A stretch of 64,000 bases of DNA from Callorhinchus milii (lineage: Eukaryota). Shown here one piece after another: positions 30,901 through 36,900 of the stretch. The stretch's first letter is position 1. Each line of letters starts with the position of its first letter. The stretch is taken from positions 20,832,001 to 20,896,000 of the forward strand of contig NW_024704744.1 in the NCBI RefSeq assembly GCF_018977255.1, given 5' to 3'. Made by a program: the position numbers.

Positions 30901-33900
30901 CTGTTTGATCGCTCTTTGAGTCCCATCAAATAATCACAAGAGAGATTCCGATAAAGAAGGCACTTTGATCATATCTCAAAAGAACCAACTTTCATATAAG
31001 CACACAGAGAGCCCACTTTATATTTATGATTCAGAATACCACTGCTGTAACTAATACTTGTCAGGAGCATAGTGTAAGTGTAAAAATCACTTTTAGGCAC
31101 CAGGTTCATGATTATAAATAGTTTGTTGCATGGCTTCACACAATAAAAATGTCAGTGAAGAAATTGCCTGATAATCGAAGTTGCTTTGGAGTATTTCTGG
31201 AGGATATCCAGACGAACCATCCTTAAAGTCAGCCTCACACAGGTAGGTTAATGTGTGCATGTAGACTCGAGAAAGGATTCCATATCTTGCAGAGCAGGCC
31301 CAGACATTGTCTCATCATGTACATTACTTTATCCAGAGGCAAAATTTCCAGCAGTGACAGTGGGGAGGGTGGGGGAGATGGGAATCCTTAGTCATTTCTC
31401 CATTCCTACTGCTGCTCTCATGACTAGTTTAAATGTACAGCTGCTCCACCTGGTCTACTTCTCTAAACTCATTGCAGTACACAATCAAGCTGTATCTAAG
31501 TCAAAGCAGTTCTGACTAATATGGTTATGATGATGTGTATTTTCCTGCAACCAAGGGCGACACGGAAACACAGACGAAACCTCTGGAGGAATGTTGCTCA
31601 CTCTGCAGAGAGCCTGGAAGAATATGTGCAGACATTCTGCCCATAGTCACACCTGTATAGTAGAATCTATGTAGCAATTTGGAAAGCATCTCTAGATGTT
31701 GGGTTCTCGCTACAGATCAAATGCATTGTTCCTTTATATATTTAGATTTTGTTCCCATATTAAATAAATGGAAATATTTGAAAGGGTCTCATCATGCACT
31801 TTATACTCCCCAAAGTATAAACATAATCATTTGTCAAATTTTAGTTTCTCATTAGTGTCACAGGTAGGTTTCTGTAACTGCAATGTTTTTGGACATTTTG
31901 AATTTGTAGGAATAATAATCCTTGCATTTGATACAATCCTTTATTGCTTTGTTAAAGTTAGATAAAGTTCCTGAAATAATATGCTATTCTATTAAAATAA
32001 TTGAGTGCACATGGGGCAACATGCATTTCTGCTCCCTTTGTTTTTGAAATGCCTGTGAGGATATGTACTACAATAAGGCAAAATCGATAATAATTATCCT
32101 TCCATTTGATATAGTGCCTTATCACATTGGCAAAATGCCTCAAATATATTCACAACATTTTACTGTGAAGTGCAGTGACAGTATTTTGTAGGCCAATGCA
32201 GCAGTCAATTTGCGACCAGCAATGTCTAAAATTTGACAAATGATTATGCTTATACTTTTGGGAGTATAAAGTGCATGATGAGACCCTTTCAAATATTTCC
32301 ATTTATTTAATATGGGAACAAAATCTAAATATATAGAAAGGATCTGTAGCTAGAAGGACCACTGTTGGTATGCATTATGATAAGACAATATTATTATTAA
32401 TAAAGAAATAATCATAATCCTTGTATTTGCAGTTGCAGTTAGTAATTAACCAGTTTTCTTTTATTGAGAGAAGAGAGATAAGTGTGTTGCTTTTATATTG
32501 TCTGCTCCTACTTTATGCTGTTCAAAGCTGAACTTCAATTCAAAGAGATTTGCAGTGCTAAGAATATCAACTAATCAGCATTTATGGCTTTAATGAGTCA
32601 CATTTGGGATAAAAAATTGCATCCAAAATTAGTTTGGTTCTTAAAAATGGCCAAATATATTGCCTACATTTTTTAATGGATGATCCAACCATCATAACCG
32701 GGAGAGTAAATCTTCCTACATAACTGAGACTCATACAGTTATAATGCATTAGATTACCGTGTTTTCCACAGTCAGTGCTGTACAGATTTATTTTCTGGGA
32801 TCTTCACTATTTTCACACTATATGGAGTCTGTAGCTCAGTGGTTAGAGCGCTCGCCTCGCAAGCGAGAGACCTGGGTTTTATTCCCGGCAGGGCAAAATG
32901 TTGGCAAGTTTCCTAACTCCACAAACCTCCGTTTACCTAGCAGTAAGTAGGAATCCGGCTGTTAGTCAATTGGCAGATCGCTTTTCCGGGGATAATAATC
33001 CCTCAAGAAAAAAACAATAATAATTTGGTCACTCAATCCACGACTGTTTGTGGGACACTACCTTGCGCAATTGGCTGTCGTGTTTCGCCCACAAATATAC
33101 GGTCAATTCACTTTACAGTGTGTTCTGTGAAGCGCTTTGGGACGTCCTCCCGACGTGAAAAGCGCTATATCAAATGCAAGGATTATTATTATTATTATAT
33201 AGTGCCTTATCACATTGGCAAAATGCCTCAAATATATTCACAACATTTTACTGTGAAGTGCAGTGACAGTATTTTGTAGGCCAATGCAGCAGTCAATTTG
33301 CGACCAGCAATGTCTAAAATTTGACAAATGATTATGCTTATACTTTTGGGAGTATAAAGTGCATGATGAGACCCTTTCAAATATTTCCATTTATTTAATA
33401 TGGGAACAAAATCTAAATATATAGAAAGGATCTGTAGCTAGAAGGACCACTGTTGGTATGCATTATGATAAGACAATATTATTATTAATAAAGAAATAAT
33501 CATAATCCTTGTATTTGCAGTTGCAGTTAGTAATTAACCAGTTTTCTTTTATTGAGAGAAGAGAGATAAGTGTGTTGCTTTTATATTGTCTGCTCCTACT
33601 TTATGCTGTTCAAAGCTGAACTTCAATTCAAAGAGATTTGCAGTGCTAAGAATATCAACTAATCAGCATTTATGGCTTTAATGAGTCACATTTGGGATAA
33701 AAAATTGCATCCAAAATTAGTTTGGTTCTTAAAAATGGCCAAATATATTGCCTACATTTTTTAATGGATGATCCAACCATCATAACCGGGAGAGTAAATC
33801 TTCCTACATAACTGAGACTCATACAGTTATAATGCATTAGATTACCGTGTTTTCCACAGTCAGTGCTGTACAGATTTATTTTCTGGGATCTTCACTATTT

Positions 33901-36900
33901 TCACACTATATGGAGTCTGTAGCTCAGTGGTTAGAGCGCTCGCCTCGCAAGCGAGAGACCTGGGTTTTATTCCCGGCAGGGCAAAATGTTGGCAAGTTTC
34001 CTAACTCCACAAACCTCCGTTTACCTAGCAGTAAGTAGGAATCCGGCTGTTAGTCAATTGGCAGATCGCTTTTCCGGGGATAATAATCCCTCAAGAAAAA
34101 AACAATAATAATTTGGTCACTCAATCCACGACTGTTTGTGGGACACTACCTTGCGCAATTGGCTGTCGTGTTTCGCCCACAAATATACAGACAATTTACT
34201 TTACAGTAAAGTGCTAAATCGTCGTTCTACTCGAAGACAATCTTGGAAGCTAAAGACAACCCCAGACTCCTCTTCTCCATCATGAACTGGTTCCTCCACC
34301 CACCCTTTCACACCTCACCCTTCCTCACCTCAAATGCCAACTGCGAGGCGATGCTGGACTTCCTTGAATCCAAAGTCAAGGGAATACTCTCCGCTGTCCC
34401 TGCAACTGCTACCTCTTCCCCATCTCCTCCCACCCTAGCCCCTACCCACCCCTCCCTCTACACCTTTTAACCTGTTTCCCCCTCCTCTCTCATCACCACC
34501 ATAACCCATATGAAACCCACAACCTGCTGCCTCGACCCCATCCCAATCCCCCTCCTTACCTCCCAGCTCCACCTTCTTGCCCCTCTACTCATTGACATTG
34601 TTAACCTCTCCCTGTCCTCTGGTACTGATCACTCCTATCCTTAAAAAACACCCTGGACCCTTCTCTACTCCCTAACTACCGCCCCATCTTCAACCTCCCC
34701 TTCCTCTCCAAGGTCCTGGAATGAGTTGTTGCTTCTCAGCTTTGCTCCTTCCTCTCCCGCCACTCCCTTTTTGAACCCTTCCAAATGGGCTTCCGTGCCG
34801 CCAACAGCACAGAAACTGCTCTGGTCAAAGTGACAAATGACTTTCTGTTCATTTACGACCAGGGCTCCCTCTGCCTCCTCATCCTCCTTGAACTCTCTGC
34901 TGCTTTCGACACCATTGACCACTCTATCCTCATCCACCGCCTCTCCTCTCACCTCAACCTCCACGGCGTTGTTCTTGATTGGTTCAGATCGTACCTCTCA
35001 CACCACCTGCACTTCATCTCCTCAAACGGTTTCTCCTCTAGCCCCCGGACCGTTTTCTGCGGCGTCCCTCAGGGCTCTGTCCTTGGTCCCCTCCTCTTCA
35101 ATATCTATATGCTCCGTCTTGGTGACATTATCCGCAGACATGGGGTCAATTTCCATGTGTATGCGAAACACCCCCAAGTGTACCTCTCTGCCTCCACCCT
35201 TGAATCCAGGACCACTGCTGTGCTGACAGAATGTCTGTCGGACATCAAGTCCTGGATGAGAGCTAACTTTCTTCAGTTGAACGTCAACAAGACCGAGGCT
35301 CTCCTGATTGGCTCTCATCAGCGCCTCCTCACCTCAGGCGCTGATAGCATCACCATCCTTGGTTGCACACTCCACCTTGCTAAGCCAGTCCAGAACCTTG
35401 GCATCTTGTTCAACCTTCAACTATTCTTTCTATCCCGCATCTGCGCCATGACCTGCTCTGCCTTCTGCCACCTCAGCAACATCGCCCGGCTCACACCACA
35501 GGCCGCCGAAATCCTCATACACGCCTTCATTACATCGAGGCTCAACTATGCATCTCACTGCTTGTTGGCCTCCCCAACTCCTCCCTCCACAGGCTGCAGA
35601 TCATCCAGAACTTTGCAGCCCGTGTCTTCTTCCGCACTAGTCTCCGCGACCCTATCACCCAACTCCACTGGCTTCCCATAGGATGCAGTTCAAGATCCTG
35701 GTCCTCATCTTCAAAGCCCTCCAGGGTCTTGCTCCCCCCTACCTCTGTGACGTCCTAACCCCTTACCACTCTGTTCACTCCCTCTGCTCAGAGGGCTCCA
35801 ACCTGCTTCACATCCCCCACTTTGCTTGCTCCACTATTGGTGGGTGAGCCTTCCCCCACACTGCACCCATCCTTTGGAACACCATCCCGCAGTCCCTCCA
35901 TCTCACCCCCTACCTCATCACCTTCGAGACCCACCTCAAGACCCTCCTCTTCGACCGTGCTTTTGATCTCCCCTGCTTTCCCCCATGCGCTACAACCTCC
36001 CTGACCCCGACCCTCAGCTCGGGTCCATAACTCTGTCTGTCCAGTGGCTTGGGACGTCCTCCTGATGTGAAAGGTGCTATACAAATGTAATTTTGTTGTT
36101 GTTGTTCTGAAGAACGTCCCTCTTTGACTGTTTTTGGTCATCTTTCCCTTCCCCACACCTCCTCGGCTCCCACTAGCACCTGTGTCCAGCCAGCATTTCA
36201 AGATATCTTCCTGACGTGAAAGGCGCTATATAAATGTAAATTGTGTTTCTACACAAATGGTGTTGGAATGAAGACGAAAATTAGATATGTCATCTCATAA
36301 AGGATCTTCATTCTTCAATCAGAAGTACCCTCCAGTAATGAATTTCCAACTCTCTGAGAGTACATATCATATAGAGATATTAAGATTGTCTCTATGATAT
36401 TTAGATTGTTACTGTGTTCTGCCTTCACTGACAAAAGAAGTAATCTATCAACACAAATAAAATAAAATAACTATAATAATAATAATGAGAGAAAGATCAC
36501 AGAATTTATATTACAAAAGATATGAATATTAGAATCATCTTAAAGAACACAAGAAAATATAGAATGAGTAAAGGTAGGTTAGCCTATGAAGCTTATTCCT
36601 TCCAGATATTCCTACTGTGGTCCCCATCTTCCCCATTGCATCTCCTGGAAAATGTTATGGCTAGAACTGGTGTGATAGGGGAGTTTAACGGTGAGTATGC
36701 GGGCGGCAGAGGTTTGGATCAGCTGGGTCCTGTGTATGGTGGAGCTGGGGAGATTGGCGAAGAGGACATTTTGAAAGTTCGAGTCGGGAGGTGACGAATG
36801 CATGCACCAGGGTTTTGACTCTGTCTGGGGTAAGGTACAGTCGGAGGCGGGCAATATGGCGGAGGTGGACGAAGGTGATCCTGGTCAGGGACCGGATGAG

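What the first reader, a model, noticed from the sequence alone, without database searches (positions are those of the whole stretch)
32109..34208. 1088-bp tandem duplication that looks generated by a SINE retrotransposition event
Copy 2 starts exactly where the (ATT)n tail of the SINE in copy 1 ends (33196/33197). The two SINEs are identical up to 33100/34188 and then differ: copy 1 has a clean young-type 3' end, while copy 2 has a diverged end running into an L2. This is the product expected if a new SINE cDNA was primed at 32109 and resolved by annealing to the existing homologous SINE ~1 kb downstream, giving a chimeric SINE plus a ~1-kb target duplication. The mechanism is known for mammalian L1 in cell culture; I do not know of it for L2-mobilised SINEs. 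The distinct 3' ends argue against a simple assembly duplication. The event also doubles an AP-1 site (TGAGTCA at 32594 and 33682) upstream of sdc1.
Basis: partly seen in the sequence, partly recalled or inferred. Interest (0 to 1): 0.66.

Follow-up and report, generated by a model that had tools for sequence, protein, structure and literature searches.

The report
Tandem duplication made by SINE insertion
A perfect 1.1-kb tandem repeat whose joint is the fresh tail end of a short mobile element, fused in register onto an older resident copy, is best read as a retrotransposition event that duplicated about 1 kb of its target; this kind of accident is already known for other mobile elements, so it is a neat natural example and not a new principle.

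Summary
Window 32109-33100 and 33197-34188 are identical (992 bp, 0 mismatches; period 1088). The 96 nt between them (33101-33196) are the 3' end and (ATT)5 tail of a tRNA-Ala-derived SINE, ending exactly at the joint.

Against an independent copy at 42662-42988, the copy-1 SINE differs at 53 of 215 positions left of 33084 but at only 2 of 113 from 33084 on (Fisher p = 5e-9). The switch falls in a 17-nt stretch (33084-33100) shared by both SINE types.

Copy 2 keeps the old SINE for about 19 more nt and then runs into a decayed LINE with an RVT_1 domain. That LINE is far older than the duplication.

No + strand SINE lies left of 32109, so unequal crossing-over between SINEs is excluded.

Best reading (confidence 0.6): target-primed reverse transcription of a young SINE RNA at 32108/32109, resolved by homology on the resident SINE downstream, giving a chimeric SINE and a ~1-kb target duplication.

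Not excluded: DNA-templated break repair, and an assembly artefact (no reads were available).

Kilobase target duplications are already reported for L1 and for zebrafish ZfL2-2 (1228 bp). The TGAGTCA site occurs at chance frequency.

The parts
32109..33100 (+). Copy 1 of the duplicated segment: 715 nt of flank (32109-32823) plus the first 277 nt of the SINE
   Evidence: Identical to 33197-34188, 0 mismatches in 992
32824..33196 (+). Chimeric SINE of copy 1: old-type head and body, young-type 3' end, (ATT)5 tail at 33182-33196
   Evidence: tRNA-Ala head. Against the copy at 42662: 53 of 215 differences left of 33084 and 2 of 113 from 33084 on
33084..33100 (+). 17-nt interval in which the SINE switches from old to young type
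   Evidence: Last old-specific difference is at 33083; first difference from copy 2 is at 33101. The interval is identical in copy 1, copy 2, 42662-42988 and 37029-37232
33101..33196 (+). The only sequence not duplicated: young-type SINE 3' end and tail, ending at the joint
   Evidence: 95% identity to the copy at 42662 here against 82% in the preceding 109 nt in the multiple alignment
33197..34188 (+). Copy 2 of the duplicated segment
33912..34207 (+). Resident old SINE, cut off at about position 296 of 373 where a LINE fragment begins
   Evidence: BLAST 1-296 of the SINE. 34189-34207 matches the family consensus at 17 of 19 positions
34209..36103 (+). Decayed 5'-truncated LINE with a (TTG)n tail. 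Its last ~55 nt resemble the SINE tail
   Evidence: RVT_1 E = 1.2e-24. Reading frame broken into pieces in different frames and by stops. 67-80% identity to other LINE copies in the window. 36036-36090 is 80% identical to SINE positions 301-356
32087..32225 (-). Old, reversed SINE 3' end. The left breakpoint 32108/32109 lies 20-22 nt inside it, next to its (AAT)n tail
   Evidence: BLAST 261-369 of the SINE on the minus strand, 73%; inverted pair I3
31730..31844 (.). Left arm of a 117-nt inverted repeat whose right arm (32226-32342, and again 33314-33430) lies inside the duplicated unit. The left breakpoint sits in the 381-nt loop
   Evidence: 98% over 110 nt ungapped; 96.6% over 117 nt

Best explanation
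A very recent retrotransposition of a young-subfamily SINE that was completed abnormally.

Inferred steps (none is observed directly):
1. The partner LINE's endonuclease nicks the bottom strand between 32108 and 32109 of the ancestral locus.
2. The freed 3' end primes reverse transcription of a young SINE RNA from its (AUU)n tail inward, for at least 96-113 nt.
3. The growing cDNA is not joined a few bases away. It pairs with the resident old SINE about 0.7-1 kb downstream, on the same molecule or on the sister chromatid. The switch falls inside the 17 nt (33084-33100) that both SINE types share.
4. DNA synthesis continues leftwards through the old SINE's head and the 715-nt flank, back to the break.
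5. The end is sealed to the left side.

The product is what the window shows: flank + old SINE head/body + new 3' end and tail, followed directly by the untouched original (flank + old SINE + old LINE). In the usual vocabulary it is a 5'-truncated SINE insertion with a 992-1009-bp target-site duplication, whose 5' joint was made by annealing to a homologous element.

Shown: the anatomy, the type switch, the relative ages, and the absence of the crossing-over product.
For: 1. Perfect 992-bp duplication with the SINE tail ending exactly at the joint, and no shared base across the left edge.
2. Type switch. Copy 1 against the independent copy at 42662-42988: 53 of 215 differences over 32869-33083 and 2 of 113 over 33084-33196, Fisher p = 5.3e-9. 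The two remaining differences are a CpG site (33101) and a 1-nt gap in the comparator. The copy at 37029-37232 shows the same pattern: 16 differing positions or gaps over 32992-33083, then one substitution plus its own 17-nt deletion.
3. The copies at 37029 and 42662 are the closest independent pair in the window (96.6% over 118 nt). Other copies are 75-86% identical to the query. The grafted end therefore belongs to the youngest type seen here.
4. The chimera is colinear, in register with the resident SINE. That requires homology and not chance joining.
5. The LINE fused to copy 2 has a broken frame and is 67-80% identical to its relatives, against 0 of 992 differences between the duplicates. 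The old SINE-LINE joint therefore predates the duplication, and the young end is new material.
6. Neither young-type copy in the window can be a DNA donor. Each differs from the grafted 113 nt: the copy at 42662 at 2 positions, the copy at 37029 by a substitution and a 17-nt deletion.
7. Precedent. One of 25 ZfL2-2 insertions in wild-type DT40 cells had a 1228-bp target duplication (PMC2666801, passages). ZfL2-1 5' joints are made by annealing (PMC4245944, passages). L1 cDNA invading a downstream end is the published model for L1-mediated tandem duplication (PMC7058536, passages and Fig. 7 legend). Small tandem duplications occur at induced L1 insertion sites (PMC11702581, passages).
Against: - No empty-site allele, no reads and no second genome were available, so neither the reality of the duplication nor the ancestral state is shown.
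- An RNA template is inferred only from the intact tail at the joint. DNA copying from a SINE elsewhere would leave the same letters.
- The endonuclease's site preference is unknown. No clear short target duplications could be read from the 10 other copies inspected, so the break site cannot be called typical.
- The break lies in the loop of a 117-nt inverted repeat. That repeat could have caused a break with no endonuclease.
- The type switch rests on two young-type comparators, the only ones in the window.
- The LINE's clade (L2) was not tested.
Confidence: 0.6

Rival explanations
1. Break repair without reverse transcription. A double-strand break at 32108/32109, perhaps provoked by the flanking inverted repeat, was repaired by synthesis-dependent strand annealing with two DNA templates: first a young SINE copy elsewhere in the genome, then the resident SINE and flank nearby. 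This would be a two-donor 'repair-mediated duplication'.
For: - Proximal repair-mediated duplications are common in vertebrate genomes. They average 162 bp, lie about 1.2 kb from their donor, and in 20 reported cases have two donors (PMC2671141; abstract, section 7 and passages).
- A clear example of that kind lies 10 kb away in this window (42987-43085, copied from 41666-41764).
- The break site lies in the loop of a 117-nt inverted repeat.
Against: - The captured SINE piece starts exactly at the end of the tail. That is what an RNA 3' end gives and what DNA capture would give only by coincidence.
- In the cited survey, none of the 39 proximal cases inspected carried a retrotransposon tail.
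- Neither young-type copy in the window matches the grafted piece exactly, so the donor would have to be distant. Distant donors were the rarer class.
- 992 bp exceeds the 619-bp maximum reported for proximal events.
Confidence: 0.13
2. Assembly artefact. The animal has one copy. One possibility is a heterozygous ordinary young SINE insertion at 32108/32109, with the assembler threading through the 17 nt shared by the two SINEs to produce a false tandem repeat.
For: - 0 mismatches in 992 bp is what a false duplication would show.
- No reads could be examined.
- The window contains one N (50516), so the assembly is not flawless.
Against: - The false path would need a join through only 17 identical bases between elements that are otherwise about 75% alike. 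Common assemblers do not make such joins (inference).
- There is no gap or N near the repeat.
- The distinct ends of the two copies are each internally consistent with real elements.
Confidence: 0.12
3. Two steps. A plain tandem duplication of flank plus part of the old SINE arose first. The joint was later overwritten by a young SINE, through insertion at the joint or partial gene conversion of the copy-1 SINE.
For: Partial conversion of old SINE copies by younger ones is described for primate Alu (recalled, not read here). The letters alone cannot order the events.
Against: - It needs two rare events at the same base within the time in which 992 bp collected no substitution.
- The first step would have had to end inside the SINE exactly where the second began.
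Confidence: 0.05
4. Unequal crossing-over between two direct SINE copies flanking the 715-nt segment.
For: It would give a chimeric middle SINE with an old 5' part and a young 3' part, as seen.
Against: The product must keep a complete young SINE in + orientation immediately left of 32109. BLAST finds no + strand SINE match between 29357 and 32824. The matches at 31911-31933 and 32087-32196 are on the minus strand.
Confidence: 0.02

Closest known systems
Long target-site duplication (L-TSD) of an L2-clade LINE: zebrafish ZfL2-2 in chicken DT40 cells (Suzuki et al. 2009, PMC2666801; passages read; its Table S5 not seen)
   Same: Kilobase-scale direct duplication of the target flanking a new insert made by an L2-type machinery (1228 bp there, 992-1009 bp here). 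It is a rare outcome there too (1 of 25 wild-type insertions).
   Different: There it was a marked LINE in cultured cells of another species. Here it is a SINE in a genome assembly, with the 5' joint made in register on a resident homologous SINE, so a chimeric element results. Whether the 1228-bp case involved homology is not stated in the passages read.
L1-mediated tandem duplications in human tumours and in induced-L1 cell models (Rodriguez-Martin et al. 2020, PMC7058536; Mendez-Dorantes et al. preprint, PMC11702581)
   Same: An insert with an intact 3' end at the joint of a direct tandem duplication. The published model has the cDNA strand engaging a DNA end downstream of the integration site.
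   Different: Those are L1 with a poly(A) tail, somatic, from small duplications up to 22.6 Mb, with no requirement for a homologous resident element. Here the tail is a microsatellite, the event is presumably germline, the duplication is 1 kb, and resolution is homology-guided.
Chimeric L1s and retrotransposition-mediated deletions (Gilbert et al. 2002 and 2005). Seen only as entries in a reference list; the 2005 paper is not held; content recalled.
   Same: As recalled: a new cDNA anneals to a resident element of the same family, so the new and old copies fuse in register.
   Different: As recalled, the resident element lies on the other side, so DNA between it and the nick is lost. Here it lies downstream, so the DNA is doubled. 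This is the mirror image.
Repair-mediated duplications by capture of proximal DNA (Pace et al. 2009, PMC2671141)
   Same: A local copy of sequence from about 1 kb away is placed at a break, with microhomology at the joints.
   Different: Those lack retrotransposon tails and are shorter (maximum 619 bp). Tandem cases were filtered out of that survey.
CmiSINEs (SINE2-1_CM, SINE2B-1_CM) of the elephant shark and the SINE 'module exchange' model (Luchetti et al. 2017, PMC5499810, passages)
   Same: tRNA-Ala-derived head and a 3' end shared with an L2-type LINE tail. That paper argues that SINEs acquire new tails by recombination or template switching with other SINEs.
   Different: The CORE domain was not tested here. 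The present case is a single-locus chimera and not a propagating new family.

Membership tests
Non-LTR retrotransposon insertion with long target-site duplication | Insert ends in the element's own intact 3' tail, abutting target DNA | tested here: met
   (ATT)5 ends at 33196 and the duplicated target starts at 33197. Other copies carry 3-8 ATT units.
Non-LTR retrotransposon insertion with long target-site duplication | The same target sequence lies directly on both sides of the inserted piece, in direct orientation | tested here: met
   32109-33100 = 33197-34188, 0 of 992 mismatches.
Non-LTR retrotransposon insertion with long target-site duplication | 5' joint made by annealing or microhomology between cDNA and target | tested here: met
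   17 nt (33084-33100) are common to the resident and incoming SINE types at the switch.
Non-LTR retrotransposon insertion with long target-site duplication | An empty (pre-insertion) allele or orthologous site exists | not testable with these tools
   No other genome, reads or population data were available. The collections on hand hold bacteria, archaea, phages, plasmids and E. coli only.
Non-LTR retrotransposon insertion with long target-site duplication | First nick at a site typical of the partner LINE's endonuclease | tested here: inconclusive
   Flanks of 10 other copies show no common motif or clear short target duplications. The nick lies 20-22 nt inside the reversed 3' end of an older copy, next to its (AAT)n tail.
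tRNA-derived SINE mobilised through a LINE-shared 3' end | tRNA-like head | tested here: met
   ARAGORN tRNA-Ala at 32826-32895 and 33914-33983. Rfam tRNA at 50.1 bits against a gathering score of 29.
tRNA-derived SINE mobilised through a LINE-shared 3' end | 3' end homologous to the 3' end of a LINE in the same genome | tested here: met
   The LINE end at 36036-36090 is 80% identical to SINE positions 301-356. That LINE carries RVT_1.
tRNA-derived SINE mobilised through a LINE-shared 3' end | Partner LINE belongs to the L2 clade | not testable with these tools
   Pfam gives only RVT_1.
Unequal crossing-over (NAHR) duplication | Direct repeats at both outer ends plus a chimeric repeat in the middle | tested here: not met
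   No + strand SINE match between 29357 and 32824.
Repair-mediated proximal duplication (Pace et al. 2009) | No retrotransposon tail at the acceptor joint | tested here: not met
   A SINE tail forms the joint. 0 of 39 proximal cases in that paper had a tail.

The most novel reading that the evidence does not exclude
SINE-dense genomes with L2-type machinery may regularly resolve stalled SINE cDNAs on resident SINE copies nearby. One event would then do two things: make a kilobase tandem duplication, and graft an active-type 3' tail onto an old SINE body.

That would be a DNA-level route to the 'module exchange' by which SINE families change tails. It would also be a so far uncounted source of small tandem duplications outside mammals.

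The window gives one clean case. It also holds a second, older local duplication that starts right at a SINE tail end 10 kb away (42987).
Probability: 0.2. Interest if true: 0.6.

Novelty: new member of a known kind. Interest (0 to 1): 0.4.

Why it matters
If the duplication is real, it is an unusually clean natural record of how a non-L1 retrotransposition intermediate can be completed by homology.
- All three joints are readable.
- The incoming and resident elements are distinguishable.
- No later mutation blurs the picture.

It would carry the L1 and ZfL2-2 cell-culture and tumour observations over to a SINE in a germline genome. It would also show a concrete way for an old SINE copy to obtain a new tail.

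It does not change what is known about the mechanism. No effect on the neighbouring Pumilio-type and syndecan genes is indicated.

Tried and rejected
- Unequal crossing-over: rejected, because no + strand SINE lies left of 32109.
- The copies at 37029 or 42662 as local DNA donors of the new end: rejected, because each differs from it.
- The grafted piece as a LINE 3' end instead of a SINE: rejected. LINE ends share only the last ~55-65 nt with the SINE, and the piece matches SINE copies over 113 nt.
- Short target duplications and a nick-site motif from 10 other copies: nothing clear.
- A remnant of the old SINE's 3' end after the LINE tail at 36103: not found. 36196-36245 is another element's tail.
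- TGAGTCA as a meaningful doubled site: at chance frequency.
- CpG island search for a syndecan promoter: only two windows pass (9501 and 27501), both inside a repeated element pair.
- Pfam on 294 single open frames (93 + 73 + 128): PUF repeats in 3, a Syndecan domain in 1, one sub-threshold DUF5478 match, and nothing inside the duplicated unit's neighbourhood apart from RVT_1.
- Rfam on the whole window: only 7 tRNA-like SINE heads.
- Gilbert et al. 2005: not held.
- Not used: the large protein searches, structure prediction and complex prediction. None bears on this DNA-level question.

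
Full report
**What is there.** Comparing the window with itself at an offset of 1088 gives one unbroken identical run, 32109-33100 = 33197-34188: 992 bp with no mismatch (spacing 1088). The bases just left of the two copies differ (32108 G, 33196 T), so the left edge is exact. The 96 nt that are not duplicated (33101-33196) end in (ATT)5, and copy 2 starts at the next base. 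After 33100/34188 the two copies differ at 33101, 33103 and 33109, agree over 33110-33119, and then have nothing in common. Among the 10 self-matches of at least 80 nt and 88% identity in the window, this is the only one above 99%.

**The elements.** 32824-33196 is a SINE of about 373 nt.
- Its head is tRNA-Ala-like (ARAGORN; Rfam tRNA 50.1 bits).
- BLAST finds 37 further matches of the family or of its tail in the 64 kb, at 70-91% identity (39 rows including the two copies). I aligned ten substantial copies with the two copies of the finding (alignment A1, 12 rows).
- Copy 2's SINE (33912-34207) stops at about position 296 and abuts a LINE fragment in the same orientation.
- In that LINE, the ORF at 34725-35681 matches RVT_1 (E = 1.2e-24). 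The reading frame is broken into pieces in different frames and by stops. The element ends near 36103 in a (TTG)n tail.
- The LINE's last ~55 nt are 80% identical to the SINE tail. This is the usual sign of a SINE that borrows that LINE type's machinery.
- The LINE's clade (L2) could not be tested with the tools on hand.

- I aligned it pairwise with the independent copy at 42662-42988. It differs at 53 of 215 positions over 32869-33083 but at only 2 of 113 over 33084-33196. Fisher's exact p = 5.3e-9.
- The two remaining differences are a CpG site at 33101 and a 1-nt gap in the comparator.
- The copy at 37029-37232 behaves the same way. It has 16 differing positions or gaps over 32992-33083, then a single substitution (33101) and a 17-nt deletion of its own.
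- These two comparators are the closest independent pair in the window (96.6% over 118 nt). The grafted end therefore belongs to the youngest type visible here.
- The other eight copies give no such contrast. In the multiple alignment their identity to copy 1 is 74-89% over 33101-33181 and 76-91% over 32992-33100.
- The last old-type difference is at 33083, and the first difference from copy 2 is at 33101. The switch therefore lies in the 17 nt 33084-33100, which are the same in all four sequences.
- The old part differs from the majority consensus of the window's copies at 22 of 257 positions.

**Order of events.** The LINE fused to copy 2 is 67-80% identical to its relatives in the window and has a broken frame. 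The two duplicates have no difference in 992 bp. The old SINE-LINE joint therefore long predates the duplication. The young-type 96-113 nt must have arrived with the duplication. At usual vertebrate substitution rates, zero differences means an age of at most a million years or so. That is an inference on an assumed rate, and the event may still be polymorphic.

1. The bottom strand is nicked between 32108 and 32109.
2. A young SINE RNA is reverse-transcribed from its tail.
3. The cDNA pairs with the resident SINE downstream, within the shared 17 nt.
4. DNA synthesis runs back through the old SINE head and the 715-nt flank.
5. The end is joined to the left side.

If the template for step 4 is the sister chromatid, synthesis can run past 32109 and the end can anneal to the left side. 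That would explain the seamless left joint. In standard terms this is a 5'-truncated SINE insertion with a 992-1009-bp target-site duplication and an annealing-type 5' joint. None of the steps is observed. What is shown is that the product has every feature the steps predict.

**Rivals.**
- *Unequal crossing-over between two SINEs.* It would leave a complete young SINE in + orientation left of 32109. There is none between 29357 and 32824, and the two nearby matches are on the minus strand. Rejected.
- *DNA-templated break repair.* This would be a two-donor repair-mediated duplication in the sense of Pace et al. 2009 (PMC2671141; abstract, section 7 and passages). It would give the same letters and cannot be excluded. 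Against it: the captured piece begins exactly at the tail's end. None of the 39 proximal cases inspected in that paper had a tail. The two young-type copies in the window are not exact donors. And 992 bp exceeds their 619-bp maximum. For it: the break lies in the 381-nt loop of a 117-nt, 97-98% inverted repeat (31730-31844 / 32226-32342), which might itself cause breaks.
- *Assembly artefact.* It cannot be tested without reads. The false path would have to pass through only 17 shared bases between elements about 75% alike, which I judge unlikely.
- *Two-step history* (plain duplication, then overwriting of the joint). It needs two rare events at one base within a time that left no substitution.

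**What is already known.**
- Suzuki et al. 2009 (PMC2666801, passages) report that 1 of 25 ZfL2-2 insertions in wild-type DT40 cells had a long target-site duplication of 1228 bp. Kilobase target duplication by an L2-type element is therefore on record. Their Table S5 could not be seen, because supplements are closed, so I do not know whether homology was involved.
- Yamaguchi et al. 2014 (PMC4245944, passages) show that ZfL2-1 5' joints are made by annealing.
- Rodriguez-Martin et al. 2020 (PMC7058536, passages and Fig. 7 legend) document L1 inserts at the joints of tandem duplications. Their model has the cDNA strand engaging a DNA end downstream of the integration site.
- A 2024 preprint (PMC11702581, passages) reports small tandem duplications at induced L1 insertion sites.
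- The mirror-image events, chimeric L1s with deletions (Gilbert et al. 2002, 2005), I know only from recall. The 2005 paper is not held.
- My searches turned up no report of a SINE-tail-joined tandem duplication with a chimeric SINE outside mammals. They cover open-access text only, so this is no proof of absence.
- Luchetti et al. 2017 (PMC5499810, passages) describe elephant-shark SINEs with a tRNA-Ala head and an L2-type tail, and argue that SINEs swap tails by recombination or template switching. The SINE here shares the first two features. Family identity and the organism remain untested. My impression that the body resembles cartilaginous-fish SINEs is recall only.

**Surroundings.**
- On the + strand, three open frames carry Pumilio repeats (11103-11318, 12699-12935, 17461-17895).
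- One frame carries the Syndecan domain and ends in a stop (62969-63172).
- The duplication therefore lies about 14 kb past the last Pumilio-repeat frame found and about 29 kb before the syndecan last exon. The syndecan gene's start was not located, and no CpG island lies downstream of the duplication.
- That the syndecan is sdc1 and not a paralogue rests on recall of its cytoplasmic region and of gene order in other vertebrates, not on a call.
- Each frame was scanned on its own.
- TGAGTCA occurs 13 times in the window against 11.95 expected, so its doubling carries no weight.
- Rfam finds nothing but SINE heads.

**Not checked.**
- Reads, other individuals or species, and the rest of this genome.
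- The closed collections (metagenome contigs, viral contigs). Genome contigs holds only bacteria and archaea and was not used.
- Supplementary tables of the cited papers.

**Verdict.** DNA-templated repair and an assembly artefact are the live alternatives. It is a new natural member of a known kind of event, of moderate interest.

Noticed in passing
window 41666-41764, 42987-43085 and 43087-43116: A second local duplication starts at a SINE tail end. Right after the (ATT)5 tail of the young-type SINE at 42662-42988 comes a 99-nt copy (96%) of sequence from 1.3 kb upstream, followed by a second ~30-nt copy of the SINE's own tail. It fits a repair-mediated capture of proximal DNA into the tail, with a ~30-nt target duplication. 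A decayed event of the same kind as the main finding is not excluded.
   Followed up: partly
window 31730-31844 and 32226-32342 (again 33314-33430): A 117-nt inverted repeat, 97-98% identical, with a 381-nt loop that holds two reversed SINE/LINE tail pieces and the left breakpoint of the duplication. It has no other copy in the window. Its origin is unexplained; it may be an older inverted duplication tied to the reversed SINE insertion at 32087-32225.
   Followed up: partly
window 32816-32823 and 33197-33204: The chimeric SINE is flanked by an exact inverted 8-mer: the 8 nt before its head are the reverse complement of the 8 nt after its tail. Both resemble the conserved motif near the end of SINE/LINE tails, one in each orientation. 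I cannot tell whether this is coincidence or a sign that breaks favour that motif.
   Followed up: no
window 33912-34207 joined to 34209-36103: An old SINE truncated at about position 296 is fused in the same orientation to an internal point of a LINE. No SINE remainder follows the LINE's tail. This points to a LINE insertion with target loss or to a template switch from LINE RNA to SINE RNA. It was not resolved.
   Followed up: partly
window 8687-8721 / 10329-10363; 42002-42072 / 42340-42410; 46871-46914 / 48025-48068: Three more short, low-copy local duplications: one direct (35 nt, 97%) and two inverted (71 nt, 92%; 44 nt, 100%). Of the 6 local low-copy duplications found in the window, 2 abut a SINE tail end.
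   Followed up: no
window 11103-17895 (+) and 62969-63172 (+): Pumilio-repeat frames and a syndecan last exon lie on the same strand about 45 kb apart. This is the Pumilio-syndecan neighbourhood known from other vertebrates (gene order recalled, not tested).
   Followed up: partly
window 9732-10184 and 27611-28026: A pair of GC- and CpG-rich repeat copies in opposite orientation, 91-93% identical. They account for the only two CpG-island-like windows in the 64 kb.
   Followed up: no
window 50516: A single N. It was left as it is.
   Followed up: no
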